IMG/VR virus record: IMGVR_UViG_2545824714_000011
Location: 1 to 17,579 of that record
Length of the DNA stretch: 17,579 nucleotides
Direction: 5' to 3' (one strand)
From: a virus
Taxonomy: Duplodnaviria; Heunggongvirae; Uroviricota; Caudoviricetes
Part shown: in pieces, positions 6,124 through 15,836 of the stretch
Layout of the letters: each line of letters starts with the position of its first letter
Numbering within the stretch: position 1 is the stretch's first letter
Notes under the pieces: generated by a model
What the model was told of the DNA's origin: nothing
Seen by the model: only the letters and a program-made list of their open reading frames with translations
Databases searched by the model: none
Position numbers and translations under genes: made by a program

Positions 6124-8781
6124 ATGAGCACGAAATTTAAAACCGTTATCACTACTGCCGGAGCCGCGAAGCTGGCAGCCGCCACTGTCCCCGGCGGGAA
6201 AAAAGTAACTCTGTCTGCAATGGCCGTGGGTGACGGTAATGGCAAATTGCCGGTGCCGGATGCCGGTCAGACGAAACTGGTGCATGAGGTCTGGCGTCAC
6301 GCTCTGAATAAAGTCAGCGTGGATAACAAGAATAAAAACTATATCGTGGCTGAACTGGTTGTACCGCCAGAAGTGGGCGGCTTCTGGATGCGTGAGCTGG
6401 GTCTGTATGACGATGCCGGAACACTGATTGCGGTCGCTAACATGGCGGAAAGCTATAAACCTGAACTCGCTGAAGGCTCCGGGCGCGCGCAGACCTGCCG
6501 CATGGTTATTATTGTCAGCAACGTGGCGTCCGTTGAGCTGAGTATTGATGCCAGCACAGTGATGGCGACGCAGGATTACGTCGATGACAAAATCGCAGAG
6601 CATGAGCAGTCCCGCCGCCATCCTGACGCCACGCTGACAGAAAAAGGTTTTACTCAGTTAAGTAGCGCAACAAACAGCACCAGTGAAGAGCTGGCGGCAA
6701 CGCCAAAGGCAGTAAAAGCAGCCTATGACAATGCTGAAAAACGTATGCAGAAAGACCAGAACGGTGACGATATTCCAGATAAGGGCGCTTTTCTGGACAA
6801 TGTTGGCGTTACCAGCCTGACGTTTATGAAAAACAATGGCGAAATGCCGCTTGATGCTGACTTGAATACATTTGGTCCCGTTAAGGCTTATCTTGGCATC
6901 TGGTCTAAAGCAACATCCACCAACGCAACACTGGAGAAAAATTTCCCGGAAGATAATGCTGTCGGTGTGCTTGAGGTTTTTGCAGCTGGCAATTTTGCAG
7001 GCACGCAACGTTTTATCACGAGAGACGGCAATGTATACATGCGTAAACTCGCCAATAAGTGGAATGGCACTGATGGTCCGTGGGGCGTATGGCGTCACAC
7101 TCAATCAGCTACCCGCCCTTTGAGTACGACTATAGACCTGAATACGCTTGGAGCCGCTGAGCATCTTGGTTTATGGCGTAACAGTAGCTCGGCTATAGCT
7201 TCATATGAACGCAATTATCCAGAGGAAGGCGGCTTTGCTCAGGGGACGCTTGAGATCCTCGAAGGCGGGAATTATGGAAGAACGCAACGTTATACCACTC
7301 GTCGTGGGAATATGTACGTTCGCTGCCTTGCGGCAAGCTGGGATGCATCAAATCCGCAGTGGGAACCGTGGTTAAGAGTCGGTCATCAGTCAGAGAGCCG
7401 TTATTACGAAGGTGATTTGAATGTTCTAACCGACCCCGGTATTTACAGTGTTACAGGAAAGGCGACAAACGGTCCGATGCTGGACGCTGCTGGGGCGACA
7501 TTGCTTGGGATACTGGAAGTAATCAGGCGTTTTGATGGTGTATCTGTCTGGCAGCGTTACACAACCACAGGGAAATCAGAAACCACACAGGGGCGCACTT
7601 TTGAGCGCGTCTACGCCGGGAGCACATGGACCGAATGGCGAGAAGTGTATAACTCCTTTTCGTTGCCCCTGAATATGGGGATCGGTGGCGCAGTGGCAAA
7701 ACTCACCAGCCTGGACTGGCAGACCTACGATTTTGTGCCGGGCAGTCTGATAACCGTTCGGCTTGATAACATGACCAATATTCCCGACGGTATGGACTGG
7801 GGCGTCATTGATGGCAACCTGATAAACATCGCAGTTGGTCCGAGTGATGATTTCGGTACGGGGCGCTCAATGCATGTATGGCGCAGCACTGCAAGTAAAG
7901 CGAATTACCGCTTTTTTATGGTTCGCATTTCAGGAAATCCGGGAAGCCGCACGATTACGACAAGACGTGTGCCAATTATCGACGAAGCTCAGACATGGGC
8001 GGCGAAACAGACATTCAGCGGTGGTCTTTCTGGCGAACTATCCGGCAATGCTGCTACAGCAACAAAGCTGAAAACGGCAAGGACAATTAACGGCGTAAAA
8101 TTTGACGGCTCGGCAAATATTGAAGCGTTTCCGCCAGGTGTTCCGCTGCCGTGGCCATCAGATACGCCACCTGCAGGTTATGCAATCATGCAGGGGCAGA
8201 CGTTTGATAAGGCAGCATATCCGAAACTGGCTATTGCCTATCCTTCTGGTGTTATTCCAGATATGCGCGGCTGGACAATCAAGGGCAAACCCGCCAGTGG
8301 TCGGGCCGTATTGTCTCAGGAACAGGATGGCATTAAATCGCACACCCACAGTGCCAGCGCATCCAGTACGGATTTGGGTACGAAAACCACATCGTCGTTT
8401 GATTACGGTACTAAATCAACGAATAACACTGGTGCACATACCCACAATGTATCTGGTACTGCAAATAGTGCTGGCGCACATACACATACCGTTCCATTAA
8501 GGAGACCAAACAGTGGAGGTATGAATTTCGACTGGCTTGATGGTGCATCAAGTGGCACGGTGGTGGGGAATGGAACTGTGCCTTCTTCTGGCGCACATAC
8601 CCACTCAGTATCAGGTACCGCTACAAGTGCTGGGGCACATGCACACACTGTTGGTATTGGCGCTCATACGCACTCTGTTGCGATTGGTTCACATGGACAC
8701 ACCATCACCGTTAACGCTGCTGGTAACGCGGAAAACACCGTTAAAAACATCGCATTTAATTATATTGTGAGGCTTGCATAA
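6124..8781 (+). CDS. H: Tail fibre protein gpH, mosaic with a His-rich (HxH) repeat C-terminal tip domain
   Basis: 885 aa. N-terminus is P2 gpH-like ([28 protein letters not shown]). C-terminal part has repeated GAHTHxVSGTAxSAGAHxHTV units of the type seen in T4 gp37-like fibre tips. Stop overlaps the G start (TAATG). Confidence 0.9.
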
Positions 8782-9398
8782 TGGCATTCAGAATGAGTGA
8801 ACAATCACGTACTGTAAAAATTTATAACCTGCTGGCCGGAACTAATGAGTTTATTGGTGAAGGTGACGCATATATTCCACCTCATACAGGGCTGCCAGCC
8901 AATTCTACAGATATCGCCCCACCGGAAATTCCTGCTGGCTTTGTGGCAGTTTTTAACAGTGAAAATGAATCGTGGAATATTGTTGAAGACCATCGTGGTA
9001 AAACGGTCTATGACGTGGCATCGGGGGACGCGTTGTTTATTTCTGAACCCGGACCGCTACCAGAGAATGTCACCTGGTTGTCGCCAGCAGGGGAGTATCA
9101 GAAGTGGGACGGCGTATCCTGGGTGAAGGATGAGGAAGCAGAAAAACTGTTTCGGATACGGGAAGCGGAAGAGAAAAAGGCAAGGTTGATCCAGGAAGCA
9201 ACAGATAACATCGCAATTCTGCAGGATGCAGTTAATCTTGAAATAGCAACAAACGAGGAAAATTCACAACTGGATTCCTGGAGAAAATACAGAGTATTAG
9301 TGAGTAGAATTGACACCAGTACAGCTCCGGATGTCGTATGGCCAGAGCTGATGAATCAGGGTTATGTGCGGGAGGACGAGCAGATAACTTCAGACTGA
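8781..9398 (+). CDS. G: Tail fibre assembly chaperone gpG (Tfa)
   Basis: 205 aa, directly coupled to H. Conserved Tfa-like C-terminal region ([21 protein letters not shown]). Its 3' end overlaps the convergent acetyltransferase gene by 37 nt. Confidence 0.85.
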
Positions 9399-9925
9399 AA
9401 TTTAGTGATGAATGTTGAATCATCTGGAATATCATGCAATACCAATGCATGAGCACCTATTGTGACATTGTTTCCTATACGCACTTTGCCACCAAGAATG
9501 GTGGCATTACAACCAATGGTCACATTATGTCCTATAACAATATCCATATCATTAAAATCACCACGCAGCCCAATAGTTACCCCTGGTTTTATTGAACAAT
9601 TTTCACCGATTGTTACTTTGTGACCGATAACAACACTGTTGAGATAAGAAATATCAAAGCCTTTCCCTATATTTACAGTTAAAGGGACTGTTACATTATA
9701 TTTATCAAGAATGAAACGTTCTATTTTCCCCGCAATCTTCCGACAGTATCCGCCTTTATCAAAAAGGTATTTGGCTATGCGCCACCAAAATAAATAACGA
9801 ACTCTTCTATGTTTTATTGCGCGAACAATTGCCTTTCGCCAGGAGAAAGGACGCTCGCTACCGATTACTTCATAGTGAATACAATCTTTAAGTTCATTAA
9901 TATTCATATCTCTATTATTCAGCAT
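9362..9925 (-). CDS. Hexapeptide-repeat (left-handed beta-helix) O-acetyltransferase, WcaB/CysE-like; moron
   Basis: 187 aa with tandem hexapeptide repeats ([75 protein letters not shown]). Layout parallels colanic-acid acetyltransferase WcaB and serine acetyltransferase. Visibly AT-rich compared with flanking tail genes. No clear Shine-Dalgarno. Confidence 0.8.
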
Positions 9926-10095
9926 AAGATAATCATGTGACCAATTATTGTAATAATTTTAATGGTATGTTTCTACTGGCTATCCAGCGTGTCTGATGTC
10001 CAGTAACAAATCGTTAACACTGGTGCAATCAAATGGTGAGTGTTAAGACTGGCCACTTATTACCAGGTATGAGGGTATGAGTGGCCAGCATTAAA

Positions 10096-10590
10096 TCAGA
10101 ACAGCCCTTTAACTGAACTGGCCGCGCTGTTAAGGGATGATGTCACTTTATCTTTGAAGCCGGACAGCATATCGCTGAACGATGAGGATTGCAGGCGCTC
10201 CCGCAAATCCTCATCACAGCGTTCAAGGGTCAGTGAAAATTCTATCTTTTTCGCCTTACCGTAGCGATCAAACTCGGAACGGGTCGTATTCGTTTCGGTC
10301 AGGACATACATGCCGTAAATCTGCCCGACGCCATCAATAAGAGGCCAGGGGCGTCCTGTATACGCCTGCGTGGTCAGCAGCGACAGCGACACTTCGCCAC
10401 CTGTAATTTCAGGATAAAGCACACCAGAAAGAACGATGCGATCATCACCTGCACCGATATACTGCCAGCTTGCTGAACGGTTAACGCGTTCATTTTTCAC
10501 ATGCCGCCAGCTTTTGTTTTGCTGTAACTGCTGATGCGGCAGCGTGCGCAGCTCAAAAACAAACATGCCGTAGATCATCATCATGGCCAT
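10096..10590 (-). CDS. U: Tail protein gpU
   Basis: 164 aa. MAMMMIYGMFVFELRTLP...GVLYPEITGG...GMYV resembles P2 gpU as recalled. Follows the tape-measure gene on the minus strand. Confidence 0.85.
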   Translation of the reverse strand: MAMMMIYGMFVFELRTLPHQQLQQNKSWRHVKNERVNRSASWQYIGAGDDRIVLSGVLYPEITGGEVSLSLLTTQAYTGRPWPLIDGVGQIYGMYVLTETNTTRSEFDRYGKAKKIEFSLTLERCDEDLRERLQSSSFSDMLSGFKDKVTSSLNSAASSVKGLF

Positions 10591-10596
10591 GACTCC

Positions 10597-13438
10597 TCAA
10601 TCTTTATCGTAAAAACTGCCACGCCCGGCACGGGCGCGCCGTTCCATTTCTGCCCTGACCATTTCACCGACCAGTTTCGCCAGTTCGCGGGGATTCTGCG
10701 TAACAACGTTATGCAGATGAACATGAATTTCACCACCAAATCCGGAGGCAACAGGCTCCCGGTTACGGGAAGTTACAGGAACTGATGCCACTGGAGATCG
10801 TATGGCCTCCGCCACCGGGCGGGAGCTGGCCGCAACAACAGGGACCAGCGCCGGAGGCAGCGGAGCCGGGACCACGGGTGTGATATTAATTGCGGGGGCA
10901 GGCTTACTGACCTGCGCAATCTTCCGCTCCTGCCACTCTCCACGAACAGCAAGTGCGCGGGGCAGGTTCTTAAAGACAATATCGCCGGGGCCAATGCGTT
11001 TTTTCGTCTCATCAACCAGCTTACCTGTGTTATCAGCAATTTTGCTGAGTCTGCGTAGCGTACCGGTATTGCTGTCTGTGAGCGGTTTGTTGTCTTTGGG
11101 TTTATTACCTCCGGTGCCATTGCCATTTTCCACAGGCTTCGGCGGATTGATTTTCGCAATGTCTCCCTGAAACAAGGCAACCTTGTCCTGAAGAATGGCC
11201 GCACGCTGTGCGTCTTCGATTTTCTTTCTCGCCCTTTCCGCTTCATCCGGAAGGACGCCAAGTTTTTCAAGTATCCACGCCAGCGTATCCAGCAACATTT
11301 TTGCGGGCGTCAGAACAAGCTGTAACGCACCGCCAAGAACGTTACCGAATATCTCGCCAGCACTGGTACATTTATCCAGCGTTTCCTTGCTGGACTCCAT
11401 CGGTGACAGCAGCGATTTAAACCAGTTAAACACCTGGCTGATCCCGCTTCCGATTGTGTCAAAAACAGGACCAAACCGTTCAAAGGTTTCGCGCAACGGG
11501 GCCAGCCGCTCCATAATCCCGCTGAACACCCCGGCATAAAACGCCTTGATGGGATCCCAGTATTTCCAGATAAGAACGGCAGCTCCGGCAAGCGCAGCCA
11601 CGATAAGACCAACCGGACTGAACAACGCCCCGATGGCGCCTCCCAGTAAAGAAACGGAACCCGTCACCATTCCCCACAGCGCAGGCAACACCCTGACGAC
11701 ATTCATTGACCGGGTAAGAATGTCAAAACCAAGACGCAGGGTGGCCAGCTTCCCGTAAAGCACCCCAATAACCAGCGACAACGAGCCAATCGTTGCAGTC
11801 ATTGCCAGCAACGCACCGCCTGCTATCAGTAGCTGGCGCGTCAGTACCGGATGGGCCTGCGCCAGCGCCGTCACCTTTGAGACCACCCGCGTGAGCCACT
11901 GCGTGACAGAACGCAGCGGACCATCAATCAGATCTGCAATGCGGATACGCAGCCCTTCCCATGCACTGCCGAGTGATTTCAGGTCGCCATCAAGGTTATT
12001 GGCCATAACCTTTGCCGTGCGTTCAGCCTCACCGCGTGCGCCCTCAAGTTCTTTTCTCAGTTTGGGCAGGGAGCCGTCCCCCGCCGCATCAACGAGAGCC
12101 ATAAACGACGTGAAAGCCTCTTCCCCGGCAATGTCCTTAAAGAACGATACCCGGTCAACTTCCCCGTATTTACGGGTGGCTTTATAAAGGTCGGCCAGCA
12201 CATCTTCCATCGGGCGCATTTTGCCGTTCGCATCAGAAACTGACACCCCCAGCTCTTTCAGCGCTTCTGCTGCCGCCTTTGGCGGTGATGCCAGACGAGC
12301 CAGGCTGGCACGCATGGCCGTACCAGCATCGCTTCCGCGAAGACCATTATTGGCAAGCACGCCCGCCATCGCTGCGGCCTGCTCAAGCGATACCAAGCTT
12401 ACCCGCAACCGGACCGGCATACTTCATGGTTTCGCCCAGCGCGCGAAAATCAGTATTAGTACGGGTAAACACTGCTGTAAGCGTGTCACCGACCCGGTCC
12501 ATCTGGTCAGCGGAGAGGCCGAACTGCGTCAGGATATTGGAGCCAATATCAGCCGTCTCGCCAAGGTCCACACCACCAGCCAGCGCCATATTAAGAACAC
12601 CGGGCAATGCGGCCTGAATGGCCTGCGGAGTAAAACCAGCCATTGCCAGAAAGCTCTGCCCACTGGCGGCATCACTCGCAGTAAACTGTGTTTCAGAGCC
12701 AAGTTTTAACGCCTGCTCACGCAGCGCCTTAAACTGCGGGCTGTTTTTGTCGATTCGCGTCAGTGCCTGAACGCGGGACATCTCTTTGCCGAACCCGATC
12801 GCAGGCTGCAAAAAACGCCCGGCAGCATAGCCGCCCGCCGTTGCCGCACCAATTGCCAGCGCACCACCTGTTTTCAGTTTTCCCGCTGTTTCCTGCGCGC
12901 GCGAATACCGCTCACGCGCCCGCGTTACACGCGCAAGCGCCTGCCGTTCGCGTTCAAGCTGATTGTTGTACTGTTCGGTGCGTCTGATGGCCTGCTGGAT
13001 GGTGTTATCGCTGCCTGTCAGGGAAATGCCGTGGCGTTTCAGCTCTCCGCCAAGCTCCCGCATTTTCTGAATTTCCCGCGTGCGCGATTCATTCAGGCGT
13101 TCAAGCCGGGTGCTTAACTGCTGCATCAGCTTTTGTTGTTTTTCGCTGAGCACTGTACCCGTGCGTTGTAACTGATTAAGGGCGTTAAGCTGGCGTCGTG
13201 CTTTCAATATGCCAGCATCCGCTTTACTGACAGCGTCACGGGCGCGCTCAAATGAACGCGCCTGACGCTCGAGATTTTTGATCGCCCCCTGCGTTCGCTG
13301 GATGGAGTCACCAAACTGCCCCATCAGGCGGCGGGCGTTTTCGGCAGGCTGGGTCAGCCTGTCAACGGCGCTGAAAGCGACCCGGATATCAAGAGTCTTC
13401 ATTGTCTGCATTCCCGCTGCGAAGTGCCGCCCGCTCAC
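10597..13438 (-). pseudogene. T: Tail tape-measure protein gpT, interrupted by a frameshift (two overlapping ORFs)
   Basis: N-terminal ORF 12383-13438 (351 aa, coiled-coil-rich) and C-terminal ORF 10597-12420 (607 aa, with glycine/alanine-rich membrane-like segment) lie in different frames and overlap at 12383-12420. Read across the junction they would give ...KYAGPVAGKLG / SLEQAAAMAGVLANNG..., a continuous tape-measure-like sequence. True start may be the ATG at 13411 or 13402 rather than the GTG at 13438. Confidence 0.75.
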
Positions 13439-13552
13439 GCCAGCTAACCACTTCGCCGGGCGTCATCATGAAGATTTCGGCGGGCGACCAGTTAAAAATG
13501 GCGGCGATATCTGCCACCAGATCTTCGATGTGCTCAAAGCACACCAGGGTGA

Positions 13553-13927
13553 TTACGCTGCCGTCTCCTGCACGCTCTTCGCGCCAGAGTCTGGCTCGCT
13601 CATAAAATTTACAGCCACAGCGCACAACTGAATAAAATCGCGTGACGACATTTTTTTAATCATCACTTCATCCAGTCGTGGCGAGGTCACGCGAGGCAAC
13701 AGCGTGAACATGGTATCCGCTTTCAGATTCAGCACATCAGACAGCGACAGACCACGCAGGGATCCAGCCTGTTCAATAGCCCCGGTGATCTCCACATACG
13801 TGATTTTTTCGCCACCACGCTCAATTGGTCGGGTCAGTTTTACGCCACGTTCGACAGCCATATCCTCACCTGCCGTCACATCATCCGCCACGGTGTTATT
13901 CCGGGTTTCAGTATCGATGTCTTTCAT
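13553..13927 (-). CDS. E: Tail assembly chaperone gpE, with probable -1 frameshift product E' extending to 13389
   Basis: 124-aa ORF between the tube and tape-measure genes. An A7 run (minus strand, 13651-13657) sits in-frame as AAA AAA A. The -1 frame is open from 13655 down to a stop at 13389-13391, as expected for the conserved chaperone frameshift. Confidence 0.75.
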   Translation of the reverse strand: MKDIDTETRNNTVADDVTAGEDMAVERGVKLTRPIERGGEKITYVEITGAIEQAGSLRGLSLSDVLNLKADTMFTLLPRVTSPRLDEVMIKKMSSRDFIQLCAVAVNFMSEPDSGAKSVQETAA

Positions 13928-13982
13928 CAGTTGTCTCCTTTTCAGTCAGAGGCGACGCACTGCGCCGCCTGCATATTACTTA

Positions 13983-14495
13983 TCAGCCAAGCCCAAGCGC
14001 GGAACGGATGCGATCGGGCACAATGTCCTTGCCGTCCTTCCGGTAAATGAAGTTCAGCAGGTCAATCTCCCACAACGGGCGATCGTTAACACTCAGCTTG
14101 TAGTAGGTGTTTTTAATGGCGTAAGTGTGTGATGTGGCTTCGCCCTGTTTGGCTTCCCCCATATCAATTTCCGTCACGCGTCCGCGCATTTCGACTTCAT
14201 ACAGGTCGCTTTCTGCATCGGTGTAGTATTCACCCGCAAAACGCAGTAGCGTGCCGTCAATCGTGCCGCCATACTTAAGGAACAGCTCACGAACTGCGCC
14301 CCCCATGACAAAGCTCGCATCAAGCGCGGAGTCGTCCAGACCGAGATCAATACTTACCGCACCCATCATGCCACCACCCCGGTAGCTGTCGGTTTTGCGC
14401 GTCAGTTTAGGCAGGGTGACGGACGTCACCTTACCCACTTCGTTTTCACCATCCACAAACAGCGTAAAAAAGCGAAGATGTTTTGGTACAGCCAT
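13983..14495 (-). CDS. FII: Tail tube protein gpFII
   Basis: 170 aa, similar to P2 FII as recalled (VTLPKLTRK...YRGGGM...DLGLDD). Start overlaps the sheath gene stop (TGATG). Confidence 0.9.
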   Translation of the reverse strand: MAVPKHLRFFTLFVDGENEVGKVTSVTLPKLTRKTDSYRGGGMMGAVSIDLGLDDSALDASFVMGGAVRELFLKYGGTIDGTLLRFAGEYYTDAESDLYEVEMRGRVTEIDMGEAKQGEATSHTYAIKNTYYKLSVNDRPLWEIDLLNFIYRKDGKDIVPDRIRSALGLG

Positions 14496-15679
14496 CAGGC
14501 ACCTCCCAGCACCGCAAATGCGGGACCAAAGAATTCATCAGTAAACGACTGGTAAAGCTCCATGTCTTCCAGCGGAGGAACGGGCGTATATTTGTAGCGA
14601 ATACGCACACGCCCCTGACGTAAATTCGTGGTGCTGTTATCCACCACGTCATACCAGCACGACGCCCCAATCAGTTTCCCGGCAGTCACCAGTGAATCCA
14701 GTTTTGCCCTGATGGCACTGATAACATCCTTCACGTTCGCAGGCGTCAGTGGACTATCGATGGTTTCAAACTGCGCTTCCGCAATTGAATCAGCCAGCAC
14801 CTGTGCGGTTCGGGTATACACCTCAAAGATGTAGGCGTTCGTTTCCGGTGTGCGGTTGCCCCAGAAGCGGAACCCGTTGCGACGAATAATGGTCGTGATT
14901 TCTTTGTTGTTGAGGCTGTTGGCATCACTGTCTTCGGCCTGCAACGACCAGAACACATGACTGGACATCCCCAGCACATTTTTAACCGGAACGTTGGACA
15001 GCGATTTGTGCCAACCCTGCTCATGGTCAATGTACGCACGAAGGCCGCACGCATAGGCAGGCGCGGGGAACGTTTCGTTTTTGCCACTTTTCGGGTTGTA
15101 GGCGATGAAGTCCGGCCATAAGAGCATCACCTCACGTTCGTTGAATTTCTGGCGGTAGGTAATCGCCTCAGCCATCGTGTTACAGCCGTGACATGAGGCA
15201 TACACAAACGCGCGCAGTTTACCCGCAATCACGCACAGGGATTTTGTTACCGCCTCCGTGTCCAGCTCCGGCGCGGCCAGAATACGCGGACGGTATCCGA
15301 TGCTTTCATCCTGCTCTGCAACAAGCAGCGCATACATCCCCGTATAGCTGCCGTCAGATTCAGAACCACCGATAACCAGTTGATCCTGCGTTTTTCCGTC
15401 TTCTTCTTTGTGTTCAGCCACGCGAACGACGATCACCTTTGTGCTCACCTGGTCTGCGATGGCCTTAAGCGCACGATAAAGCGTCCCCGTTGTCCCGCAT
15501 TTTCCCAGCACGTCATTGACGCGGGTCAGCAGTGTGGGCTTGTTCAGCGGGAACAGCTTCGCGTCCGCATCATCCGCCGTTGCCACGATACCGATAACAC
15601 TGGAATCAACATCATTAATCGCTGTTACCAGGTCGGTATTTTCCGTAACACGGGCACCATGAAAACGAGTTTCACTCAT
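14495..15679 (-). CDS. FI: Contractile tail sheath protein gpFI
   Basis: 394 aa, similar to P2 FI as recalled (FPLNKP...KLRAF...WPDF...DHEQGWHKSLSNV...IRRNGFRFWGNRT...YTRTAQV...YTPVPPLE). GGGG Shine-Dalgarno upstream. Confidence 0.9.
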   Translation of the reverse strand: MSETRFHGARVTENTDLVTAINDVDSSVIGIVATADDADAKLFPLNKPTLLTRVNDVLGKCGTTGTLYRALKAIADQVSTKVIVVRVAEHKEEDGKTQDQLVIGGSESDGSYTGMYALLVAEQDESIGYRPRILAAPELDTEAVTKSLCVIAGKLRAFVYASCHGCNTMAEAITYRQKFNEREVMLLWPDFIAYNPKSGKNETFPAPAYACGLRAYIDHEQGWHKSLSNVPVKNVLGMSSHVFWSLQAEDSDANSLNNKEITTIIRRNGFRFWGNRTPETNAYIFEVYTRTAQVLADSIAEAQFETIDSPLTPANVKDVISAIRAKLDSLVTAGKLIGASCWYDVVDNSTTNLRQGRVRIRYKYTPVPPLEDMELYQSFTDEFFGPAFAVLGGA

Positions 15680-15836
15680 AGCTTCAGCCCCTTGTATCCG
15701 TTAAATGATTCGGCAACAATCATCACCCACCACGCGCGTAATCTCACCCCTGCGCCGTTCTCTCGCCACGGCGACAACAAAAAGCAGTAACCCCCTCCGC
15801 ACGCACATGCGACCATGCCGCACAGGGAGGGAACAG

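What the first reader, a model, noticed from the sequence alone, without database searches (positions are those of the whole stretch)
9362..10095. AT-rich acetyltransferase moron at the tail-fibre junction (Z/fun-equivalent slot)
A hexapeptide-repeat acyltransferase of WcaB/CysE-like layout lies between the tail-fibre assembly gene and the gpU end of the sheath-to-U block. It is visibly more AT-rich than the flanking tail genes, lacks a clear Shine-Dalgarno and overlaps the 3' end of G by 37 nt, all marks of a recently acquired moron. In P2 this junction holds Z/fun and is a recognised variable hotspot for lysogenic-conversion and anti-phage genes. A soluble sugar O-acetyltransferase here could acetylate O-antigen, capsule or colanic acid to block adsorption of other phages, or modify another substrate.
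Basis: partly seen in the sequence, partly recalled or inferred. Interest (0 to 1): 0.6.

Follow-up and report, generated by a model that had tools for sequence, protein, structure and literature searches.

The report
Tail-fibre-linked prophage acetyltransferase-like gene
An AT-rich gene beside the tail-fibre genes of a defective P2-family E. coli prophage encodes a real, conserved acetyltransferase-fold protein that travels between unrelated phages together with a tail-fibre tip, but it has lost the usual catalytic residues, so its database name "serine acetyltransferase" is wrong and its chemistry is unknown.

Summary
The ORF on the minus strand is 9362..9925. Its conserved start is 9907, giving 181 aa. 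The stretch 9926..10095 is non-coding.

- **Position:** its 3' end overlaps the tail-fibre assembly gene by 37 nt, and it sits between that gene and gpU.
- **Composition:** it is the most AT-rich stretch of the window (GC 0.37, GC3 0.29).
- **Fold:** it has a CysE/WcaB-like layout, with N-terminal helices followed by a left-handed beta-helix.

- **It is not a lone insert.** Window 8149..~9995 is one cassette: fibre tip, Tfa, this gene and a conserved promoter-like site. The cassette recurs in a P2-like phage-plasmid, a P1-size plasmid and a prophage with a lambda-type side tail fibre. More distant relatives sit convergent to Tfa-type genes in other phages.
- **The catalytic Asp-His pair is gone.** It is Thr-Tyr in this small clade. 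Of 62 aligned representative homologues, 59 keep His.
- **The clade is under strong purifying selection** (dN/dS 0.02-0.12).

The nearest non-phage relatives lie in polysaccharide gene clusters. The best reading is a lysogenic-conversion acyltransferase acting on a conserved envelope glycan. That function is inferred, not shown. Serine acetyltransferase is excluded.

The parts
9362..9907 (-). Coding sequence of the LbH (hexapeptide-repeat) acyltransferase-like protein, 181 aa from the conserved start. An in-frame, non-conserved ATG at 9925 would give 187 aa. In 187-aa numbering Tyr94 and Thr79 replace the catalytic His and Asp of the family. In 181-aa numbering these are Tyr88 and Thr73.
   Evidence: ORF. 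RefSeq start in the near-identical E1739 copy. Pfam, NCBIfam and PHROG 2154. Structure. Active-site columns. dN/dS 0.02-0.12.
9947..9975 (-). Promoter-like site TAGAAA-17 nt-TACAAT, about 40 nt upstream of the start codon. The -10 element reads TATAAT in two other cassette copies.
   Evidence: Consensus scan. The number of such sites in the region is no higher than in shuffled sequence, so the scan alone is weak. The site is conserved in all four phage and plasmid copies, and sequence identity breaks down just upstream of it.
9926..10095 (-). Non-coding spacer between the gpU stop codon and the LbH gene. It holds the promoter-like site and an 8-bp inverted repeat, CTGGCCAC (10088..10081) and GTGGCCAG (10056..10049), directly after gpU.
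   Evidence: Sequence. RNA fold -40.6 kcal/mol, z = -2.8. Similarity to phage P88 ends at 10091, which is the right edge of the variable slot.
8149..9995 (.). Mobile tail-fibre-tip cassette. It comprises the C-terminal about 210 aa of the tail fibre (from the Collar domain), the Tfa-type assembly gene, the LbH gene and its promoter region.
   Evidence: blastn gives these matches: 8149..9995 at 93.6% in a 97.5-kb plasmid (L013); 8149..9976 at 82.4% in a prophage with a lambda-type side tail fibre next to dinI/prfC (L014); 6638..10186 at 94.3% in a P2-like phage-plasmid (L012). Annotations.
8781..9398 (+). Tail-fibre assembly gene (lambda Tfa type, 205 aa). Its last 37 nt overlap the 3' end of the LbH gene on the other strand.
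   Evidence: Pfam Caudo_TAP 3.8e-39. It is 78% identical to JL22 Tfa and 52% identical to the phiNP tail-fibre assembly protein. Both of those genes also have a convergent LbH neighbour.
6124..8781 (+). Tail-fibre gene (P2 gpH-like N-terminus). Its C-terminal tip, from about residue 676, belongs to the cassette.
   Evidence: Pfam Phage_tail_fib, Collar and Phage_fiber. Cassette boundary.
10096..10590 (-). gpU-like tail gene, the last gene of the inverted sheath-to-U block. It is the right flank of the slot.
   Evidence: Pfam Phage_P2_GpU 5.5e-39. 98-99% identical to phage P88.

Best explanation
The gene encodes a soluble protein with the fold of the CysE/WcaB branch of the hexapeptide (left-handed beta-helix) acyltransferases; by analogy with that family it is probably trimeric. 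It is a self-contained moron, probably with its own sigma-70-type promoter, transcribed against the late tail operon and therefore probably expressed in the lysogen. It travels as one cassette with a Tfa-type tail-fibre assembly gene and a tail-fibre tip, and this cassette is exchanged between P2-like, P1-size and lambda-fibre-type temperate elements of Enterobacterales.

The most likely role is lysogenic conversion. On this reading the protein uses acyl-CoA in the cytoplasm to modify a precursor of a conserved envelope glycan, such as LPS core, ECA, colanic acid or capsule. That would change a phage receptor or surface antigen, in the way prophage CUS-3 NeuO acetylates the K1 capsule.

Shown here:
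- gene, fold and composition;
- cassette linkage;
- purifying selection;
- polysaccharide-cluster ancestry;
- loss of the Asp-His pair.

Inferred:
- expression in the lysogen;
- acyl transfer;
- the glycan target;
- any effect on phage adsorption.

Because the general-base His is Tyr in this clade, the chemistry must differ from canonical O-acetyl transfer. It could be Tyr-assisted or base-independent, for example N-acylation of an amino sugar.
For: - **Fold and family:** Pfam Hexapep; the best NCBIfam hits are EpsC, CysE and WcaB. The AF2 model has pLDDT 89.5, and Foldseek places it with serine acetyltransferase structures.
- **Real, selected gene:** dN/dS is 0.02-0.12 across copies of 73-97% nucleotide identity. 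It is present in 316 of 5426 complete E. coli genomes.
- **Own promoter:** TAGAAA-17-TA(C/T)AAT is conserved in four contexts, and identity ends just upstream of it.
- **Cassette:** the same fibre tip + Tfa + LbH block occurs in three unrelated replicon types.
- **Recurrent architecture:** the convergent Tfa/LbH arrangement also occurs in Hafnia phage yong2 (53% identity), Citrobacter phiNP (39%) and the P1-like phage JL22 (37%). The JL22 authors call the gene's role unknown (PMC9603915).
- **Ancestry:** the three nearest non-phage relatives examined all lie among glycosyltransferase, flippase or nonulosonic-acid genes.
- **Acts without phage parts:** a stand-alone copy lies between rcdA and ybjL in E. 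coli O145. The ORF is also intact in this window, which is otherwise a decayed prophage.
- **Precedent:** NeuO is a prophage-borne LbH O-acetyltransferase (PMC3046976). Its capsule acetylation raises phage resistance (PMC13001214).
Against: - The catalytic His (E. coli CysE His158, N. gonorrhoeae His162) aligns with Tyr, and its Asp partner aligns with Thr, Lys or Val, in every member of this clade. 68 of 77 and 59 of 62 aligned homologues keep His. This family relies on that His for O-acetyl transfer (PMC8786284; PMC3046976).
- No substrate, expression or phenotype data exist.
- The cassette occurs in strains of several O-serogroups listed in the records (O6, O139, O145, O177). This argues against an O-antigen-specific target.
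- Linkage to the fibre module could reflect only a recombination-prone junction.
- Promoter-like sites in the region are no more frequent than in shuffled sequence.
Confidence: 0.4

Rival explanations
1. The protein is a non-catalytic or re-purposed LbH protein (a pseudoenzyme). It keeps the trimeric beta-helix and perhaps CoA or nucleotide-sugar binding, but it acts by binding. It could be a regulator, a decoy, an inhibitor of a host polysaccharide enzyme, or a sensor or effector in phage-phage conflict.
For: Both residues of the Asp-His dyad are lost together, and only in this clade. Strong purifying selection nevertheless persists. The gene lies in a hotspot that also carries defence-like cargo.
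Against: The hexapeptide and glycine positions and the C-terminal coils that bind CoA in relatives are well conserved. PADLOC gives no hit. It is a single gene with no partner. Sister phage copies next to Tfa genes keep the dyad (phiNP and JL22), so the ancestral role in this niche was probably enzymatic.
Confidence: 0.2
2. The protein is an active acyltransferase with a different acceptor class. It could be an N-acyltransferase of an amino sugar or another amine, or a modifier of a small molecule or xenobiotic, needing no histidine base.
For: From my own knowledge, LbH N-acetyltransferases such as QdtC and WlbB work without a catalytic base (Thoden et al. 2009; Thoden and Holden 2010). Those references are listed, but the papers could not be read here. 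All six aligned acceptor-site residues of serine acetyltransferase differ, which shows that the pocket has been remodelled (residue list from PMC8786284).
Against: The overall layout is of the CysE/WcaB O-acetyltransferase branch, not the PglD/QdtC branch. Matches to Vat, CatB and other xenobiotic families are weak and partial. No amino-sugar pathway genes lie nearby.
Confidence: 0.2
3. The protein is a true serine O-acetyltransferase (CysE), as many RefSeq and GenBank records name it, supplying O-acetylserine for cysteine synthesis.
For: Database names. The best structural matches are serine acetyltransferases.
Against: - TIGR01172 scores 70.5 bits against a cut-off of 210.65.
- PRK11132 scores 44.2 bits against a cut-off of 397.
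- The N. gonorrhoeae active-site residues Asp147, Asp161, His162, Glu170, Arg196 and His197 align with Thr, Ser, Tyr, His, Met and Asp (residues from PMC8786284).
- The N-terminal domain is half the size.
- The C-terminus is ...SSSRT, not the Ile-ended tail that binds CysK (that feature is from my own knowledge).
Confidence: 0.02
4. The protein is a phage morphogenesis accessory. It would work with Tfa on the tail fibre, for example by modifying or chaperoning it, rather than acting on the host.
For: It is linked tightly and repeatedly to Tfa and fibre tips, including a shared 37-nt overlap.
Against: - It is on the opposite strand to the late operon, with its own promoter-like site.
- Stand-alone chromosomal copies exist with no phage genes nearby.
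- Many closely related Tfa genes, such as tfaR and tfaQ types, lack it.
- It is interrupted by IS1 in one strain.
- P88 itself lacks it.
Confidence: 0.05

Closest known systems
NeuO, the polysialic-acid O-acetyltransferase of E. coli K1 prophage CUS-3 (PDB 3JQY family; PMC3046976)
   Same: Both are soluble LbH-family proteins encoded by a temperate prophage as single-gene morons. NeuO modifies a surface polysaccharide and thereby changes phage sensitivity (PMC13001214).
   Different: - NeuO keeps the catalytic His and Trp. Here the His is Tyr.
- NeuO belongs to a different LbH branch and is not among the 60 best PDB sequence matches listed. The related OatWY matches only at E = 0.0024, over the last coils.
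- NeuO is phase-variable through heptanucleotide repeats. No such repeats occur here.
- The substrate of NeuO is known. The substrate here is not.
CysE/EpsC/WcaB branch of hexapeptide O-acetyltransferases (TIGR01172, NF041874, TIGR04016)
   Same: The layout is the same: N-terminal helices, then a beta-helix, then a short tail. These are the best profile and structure matches. The nearest non-phage relatives are short 'CysE-like' enzymes inside polysaccharide gene clusters.
   Different: Scores are a third or less of every curated cut-off. The Asp/Glu-His dyad, present in CysE, WcaB and 59 of 62 representative homologues, is absent here. The gene is not in a biosynthetic cluster.
'Serine acetyltransferase' genes next to tfa in other temperate phages: sacF of P1-like phage JL22, sat of Citrobacter phiNP, and the Hafnia phage yong2 gene (PHROG 2154 and relatives)
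   Same: They belong to the same family (37-53% identity) and have the same arrangement, convergent with a Tfa-type gene at the end of the fibre module. Function is unknown in the literature (PMC9603915).
   Different: JL22 and phiNP keep Glu/Asp plus His. The window protein and yong2 belong to the Tyr clade.
P2 Z/fun locus and the invertible fibre segment of P88
   Same: The position is the same: the variable slot directly downstream of the tail-fibre assembly gene.
   Different: The resemblance is positional only. The cargo here is a different kind of protein. In P88-like phages the far flank is the gpU end of an inverted tail block, not FI as in P2 (the P2 gene order is from my own knowledge).
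Membrane O-antigen acetyltransferases of temperate phages (Sf6 Oac, OafA and GtrC type; Acyl_transf_3)
   Same: The proposed biological role is the same: lysogenic conversion of a surface glycan by acetylation. That these enzymes do this is from my own knowledge.
   Different: The fold and topology are unrelated. Those enzymes are integral membrane proteins that act on the periplasmic side. This protein gives only Hexapep-type Pfam hits, and its model is a soluble helical plus beta-helix protein.

Membership tests
Hexapeptide-repeat (LbH) acyltransferase superfamily | Tandem hexapeptide repeats scoring above the Pfam gathering threshold | tested here: met
   PF00132 scores 47.5 bits against a cut-off of 27.
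Hexapeptide-repeat (LbH) acyltransferase superfamily | Left-handed parallel beta-helix fold | tested here: met
   The AF2 model has pLDDT 89.5 and short strands with hexapeptide periodicity. Foldseek probability is 1.00 to many LbH structures.
Hexapeptide-repeat (LbH) acyltransferase superfamily | Conserved catalytic histidine (general base) at the subunit interface | tested here: not met
   Tyr94 occupies the His column. 68 of 77 and 59 of 62 homologues have His. The role of this His is described in PMC3046976 and PMC8786284.
Hexapeptide-repeat (LbH) acyltransferase superfamily | Trimer that binds acyl-CoA and transfers the acyl group | not testable with these tools
   This needs biochemistry or a multimer and ligand model.
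Serine O-acetyltransferase CysE | Score above the curated equivalog cut-off | tested here: not met
   TIGR01172 scores 70.5 against 210.65. NF008349 scores 44.2 against 397.
Serine O-acetyltransferase CysE | Asp-His catalytic dyad and serine-binding Asp, Arg and His residues | tested here: not met
   In N. gonorrhoeae numbering, D147, D161, H162, E170, R196 and H197 align with T, S, Y, H, M and D (alignment; residues).
Serine O-acetyltransferase CysE | C-terminal tail ending in Ile that docks into CysK (known from the literature, from my own knowledge) | tested here: not met
   The protein ends ...ICSSSRT. The tail is not conserved among homologues.
Colanic acid acetyltransferase WcaB | Equivalog score, conserved Glu-His pair, and location in the wca cluster | tested here: not met
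   Scores are 62.2 against 196 and 59.8 against 194.65. WcaB has E...H where this protein has T...Y. The gene is in a prophage tail region.
NeuO/OatWY polysialate O-acetyltransferases | Catalytic His plus Trp, and sequence relatedness | tested here: not met
   Only OatWY matches, at E = 0.0024 over residues 125-173. The His is absent.
NeuO/OatWY polysialate O-acetyltransferases | Phase variation through 5' heptanucleotide repeats (NeuO) | tested here: not met
   There is no tandem repeat in or before the ORF, apart from a two-copy 8-mer in the spacer.
Moron / lysogenic-conversion gene of a temperate phage | Composition distinct from the flanking phage genes | tested here: met
   GC is 0.371 and GC3 is 0.293, against 0.46-0.60 and 0.42-0.69.
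Moron / lysogenic-conversion gene of a temperate phage | Present or absent among otherwise similar phages, at a variable slot | tested here: met
   P88 and 12 other phage records share gpU but not this gene. Of 1396 E. coli genomes that match part of the 1.4-kb junction query, 136 carry it in full.
Moron / lysogenic-conversion gene of a temperate phage | Own promoter and terminator, and expression in the lysogen | tested here: inconclusive
   A conserved promoter-like site is present. No terminator-like site was found downstream of the stop codon. No expression data exist.
Known anti-phage defence systems (PADLOC-DB 2.0) | Match to a defence-system protein model | tested here: not met
   No families matched at E <= 1.

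The most novel reading that the evidence does not exclude
The Tyr-for-His clade is a functionally re-tooled LbH protein, either an enzyme with non-canonical chemistry or a pseudoenzyme. It co-evolves with Stf/Tfa-type tail-fibre tips and alters or masks the very receptor that the co-transferred fibre recognises. Each fibre cassette would then carry its own superinfection exclusion or debris-avoidance function as it moves between P2-, P1- and lambda-type phages.
Probability: 0.2. Interest if true: 0.65.

Novelty: new variant of a known kind. Interest (0 to 1): 0.42.

Why it matters
- **Annotation:** the family is in about 6% of complete E. coli genomes and in several phage genomes. It is routinely labelled "serine acetyltransferase", and the active-site evidence here contradicts that label.
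- **A new unit of exchange:** if the gene modifies a conserved envelope structure, the unit swapped between temperate phages would be a fibre-tip cassette with a built-in host-surface modifier, not a fibre alone. That bears on host-range prediction and on phage therapy against ETEC and other E. coli.
- **Enzymology:** a His-to-Tyr, Asp-to-Thr active site kept under strong purifying selection is a natural experiment on how LbH acyltransferases can work, or be re-purposed, without their general base.

Tried and rejected
- **Defence system:** PADLOC gave no hit. Rousset 2022, the 2026 NAR paper on P2/P4 hotspots and the Tai-system paper do not mention acetyltransferases.
- **Structured RNA in the spacer:** Rfam found nothing in 9926..10095. 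The only hit is a sub-threshold IS009 match inside the Tfa coding region. The spacer folds somewhat better than shuffled sequence (z = -2.8), but the 8-bp hairpin is not well conserved in L012.
- **Phase variation like NeuO:** no repeats were found.
- **The 187-aa reading:** the upstream ATG at 9925 is rejected as the start, because it is missing in L014 and homology begins at 9907.
- **Independent insertion into the slot:** rejected in favour of cassette transfer.
- **AT-richness as a sign of recent acquisition:** rejected.
- **Context of distant clade members:** P0014 and P0022 sit on contigs with no informative neighbours.
- **QdtC paper:** an attempt to read it for the base-independent mechanism failed because the paper is not held. 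That point rests on my own knowledge.
- **Literature:** searches for a characterised phage LbH gene next to tfa found only the JL22 remark that its role is unknown.
Full report
**What is in the sequence**

The window is the late region of a P88-like (Xuanwuvirus, Peduoviridae) prophage of E. coli.
- The 1.4-kb junction query (9000..10400) is 100% identical to E. coli E1739, and window 3743..16937 is 98.4% identical to that strain.
- The gpU side is 97-98% identical to phage P88 and its relatives.
- Pfam identifies 6124..8781(+) as a P2 gpH-type tail fibre and 8781..9398(+) as a Caudo_TAP assembly protein.
- On the minus strand Pfam identifies gpU (10096..10590), the tape measure, gpE, tube and sheath. 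gpD lies on the plus strand.

The finding's ORF is 9362..9925(-), 187 aa.
- The ATG at 9925 is not conserved, and homologues all start at the ATG at 9907. The product is therefore 181 aa, as RefSeq annotates it (WP_001447286, "LbetaH domain-containing protein").
- The 37-nt convergent overlap with the assembly gene is exact (9362..9398).
- Only GAG lies 2 nt before the start codon, so there is no usable Shine-Dalgarno sequence.

**Composition**

- The ORF has GC 0.371 and GC3 0.293. Thirteen tail genes have GC 0.46-0.60 and GC3 0.42-0.69.
- The windows covering it are the lowest-GC windows in the whole profile.
- All copies of the family have GC 0.36-0.41, including copies that have diverged to dS 0.3, 0.7 and saturation.
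- AT-richness is therefore a stable property of this gene family. It is not a sign of recent arrival.

**What the protein is**

- Pfam Hexapep passes its threshold.
- The best NCBIfam profiles are EpsC, CysE and WcaB, all at a third or less of their cut-offs.
- PHROGs places it in phrog_2154, function unknown, E = 4e-79.
- PADLOC has nothing.
- An AF2 model built on a 77-sequence alignment has pLDDT 89.5. It shows four N-terminal helices and a beta-helix.
- The first 50 Foldseek PDB matches are all serine acetyltransferases, with TMq 0.6-0.74.

**The active site is not that of the family**

The proposed mechanism for serine acetyltransferases uses a His-Asp dyad (E. coli His158 and Asp143; N. 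gonorrhoeae His162 and Asp147). Further Asp, Glu, Arg and His residues line the N. gonorrhoeae active site, and several of them bind the serine (PMC8786284). The NeuO structure paper notes that all LbH acyltransferases crystallised up to then share the catalytic His (PMC3046976).

| N. gonorrhoeae residue | Aligned residue here (HMMER alignment to 6WYE) |
|---|---|
| Asp147 | Thr79 |
| Asp161 | Ser93 |
| His162 | Tyr94 |
| Glu170 | His102 |
| Arg196 | Met127 |
| His197 | Asp128 |

- MAFFT alignments give the same result.
- The clade containing the window protein covers identities down to 53% and includes Hafnia phage yong2. It always has Tyr at the His column, with Thr, Lys or Val at the Asp column.
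- The next relatives all have Asp or Glu plus His. These are P0015, ESSI2_ev015, P0022, phiNP, JL22, WcaB and CysE.
- Among 77 family members, 68 have His, 8 have Tyr (all in this clade) and 1 has Asn.
- An exhaustive HMMER scan of 1.84 billion representatives found only 4 proteins at E <= 1e-30. Of the 62 top representatives aligned, 59 have His. Only the window protein and its own clade representative have Tyr.
- The clade is nevertheless under strong purifying selection, with dN/dS 0.02-0.12.
- So it is a functional protein, it is not a serine acetyltransferase, and its chemistry cannot be the canonical His-dependent O-acetyl transfer.

**Context: a cassette, not a lone insert**

The family occurs in 316 of 5426 complete E. 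coli genomes, in identity bands of about 100, 97, 92, 87 and 73%.

| Locus | Replicon | Window span matched | Identity |
|---|---|---|---|
| L013 | 97.5-kb (P1-size) plasmid carrying phage tail and lysis genes | 8149..9995 | 93.6% |
| L014 | prophage with a lambda-type side tail fibre, abutting dinI/prfC | 8149..9976 | 82.4% |
| L012 | 49-kb P2-like phage-plasmid | 6638..10186 | 94.3% |

- The left edge (8149) is the start of the Collar domain of the fibre.
- The right edge lies just upstream of a promoter-like TAGAAA-17-TACAAT site (9975..9947). This site is conserved in all four copies and reads TATAAT in two of them, while sequence beyond it is unrelated.
- More distant family members have the same convergent arrangement next to an assembly gene in Hafnia phage yong2, Citrobacter phiNP and the P1-like phage JL22.
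- The phiNP and JL22 assembly proteins are of the same lambda-Tfa type (52% and 78% identical), while the yong2 protein resembles it only over its C-terminal part.
- The JL22 authors noted that sacF plus tfa had replaced the P1 fibre module, and that the reason for a "serine acetyltransferase" there is unknown (PMC9603915).
- A 73.5%-identical copy stands alone between rcdA and ybjL in E. coli O145, so the protein does not need phage partners.
- Phage P88 itself carries an invertible fibre segment and an invertase in this slot.
- The literature describes the junction downstream of the fibre-assembly gene in P2-like phages as a mixed-purpose hotspot.

**Ancestry**

Three of the nearest non-phage relatives (30-34% identity, His retained) were looked up. 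All three are embedded in surface-polysaccharide clusters with glycosyltransferases, a Wzx-type flippase, NeuB and CMP-transferase, or a polysialyltransferase-like gene.

**Best explanation and rivals**

The most likely reading (confidence about 0.4) is as follows.
- It is a self-promoted lysogenic-conversion gene.
- Its product acts in the cytoplasm on a precursor of a conserved envelope glycan.
- It is carried as part of a mobile fibre-tip cassette, and is analogous in biology to CUS-3 NeuO.
- Its occurrence in strains of several O-serogroups suggests a conserved target rather than one O-antigen.

The rivals are these.
- A non-catalytic, re-purposed LbH protein (0.2).
- An acyltransferase with a different acceptor that needs no base, such as an amino sugar (0.2). 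The precedent of QdtC and WlbB is from my own knowledge.
- A fibre-assembly accessory (0.05). The opposite strand, the stand-alone copies and the many Tfa genes without it argue against this.
- A true CysE (0.02), which is excluded by the scores and the active site.

**Verdict**

- Three corrections are needed: the gene belongs to a tail-fibre cassette, its low GC is not evidence of recency, and it lacks the catalytic dyad on which the proposed O-acetyltransferase function depends.
- It is a new variant of a known kind and of moderate interest. A simple set of biochemical and adsorption experiments would settle the function.

**Side observations**

- The window is a decayed prophage. About 15 kb of replication, head and lysis genes are missing at 3743-3750.
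- The tape-measure gene carries a 2-nt deletion.
- The hxsABCD island found between D and ogr in E1739 is absent.

Noticed in passing
window 10597..13438 (-), break near 12383..12420: The tape-measure gene is split into two overlapping ORFs (351 aa and 607 aa). The cause is a 2-nt deletion relative to the intact genes of E. coli E1739 and phage P88 (GGTAT--CGCTTG against GGAATATCGCTGG). This is either a frameshifted pseudogene or a sequencing error.
   Followed up: partly
window 3743..3750 junction: Window 1..3750 matches the integrase, repressor and early region of the E1739 prophage. Window 3743 onward matches gpV, which lies about 15 kb further along in E1739. Replication, terminase, capsid, lysis and tail-completion genes are therefore deleted. 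The window is a defective prophage remnant in which the LbH ORF is still intact.
   Followed up: partly
window 16937..16948; L001 20108..23505: In E. coli E1739 a His-Xaa-Ser radical-SAM system (hxsABCD) sits between gpD and ogr. The window lacks this island, and identity drops to 95% beyond the junction. This is a second variable slot in this phage type.
   Followed up: no
window 9124..9322 (+): A sub-threshold Rfam match to IS009 (RF02111; 80.8 bits against a gathering score of 117; E = 1.6e-18) covers the full model and lies entirely inside the tail-fibre assembly coding sequence. It probably reflects similarity to tfa-like coding sequence rather than a separate RNA gene here.
   Followed up: partly
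L015 3956..4507 (E. coli O145 RM9154-C1): A 73.5%-identical copy of the Tyr-clade gene stands alone between the core genes rcdA and ybjL, with no phage genes nearby. The 60-80% identity band holds 72 records.
   Followed up: partly
L007 6001..7697 (Enterobacteriaceae bacterium BIT-l23 chromosome): Three hexapeptide-repeat genes lie in tandem (181, 193 and 195 aa). The first is a His-retaining relative with 49% identity. No phage genes are nearby.
   Followed up: no
E. coli E1648, hit H91: An IS1 element interrupts the LbH gene in an otherwise 99%-identical cassette. RefSeq annotates the two halves as separate 'DapH/DapD/GlmU-related' and 'WcaB domain' proteins.
   Followed up: no
window 10049..10088 (-): An 8-bp inverted repeat (CTGGCCAC ... 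GTGGCCAG, 24-nt loop) lies directly after the gpU stop codon, with no T-run after it. In L012 one arm has a mismatch and the loop has an 8-nt deletion. It may be a weak terminator or a recombination scar at the right edge of the variable slot.
   Followed up: partly
L003-L006 6001..6627 (E. coli): A His-retaining paralogue (P0020, 45% identity, 208 aa) lies at the end of a different prophage, between mntR-side chromosomal genes and a DUF4760 gene. It is a few genes away from a Tfa-type assembly gene and a tail fibre.
   Followed up: no
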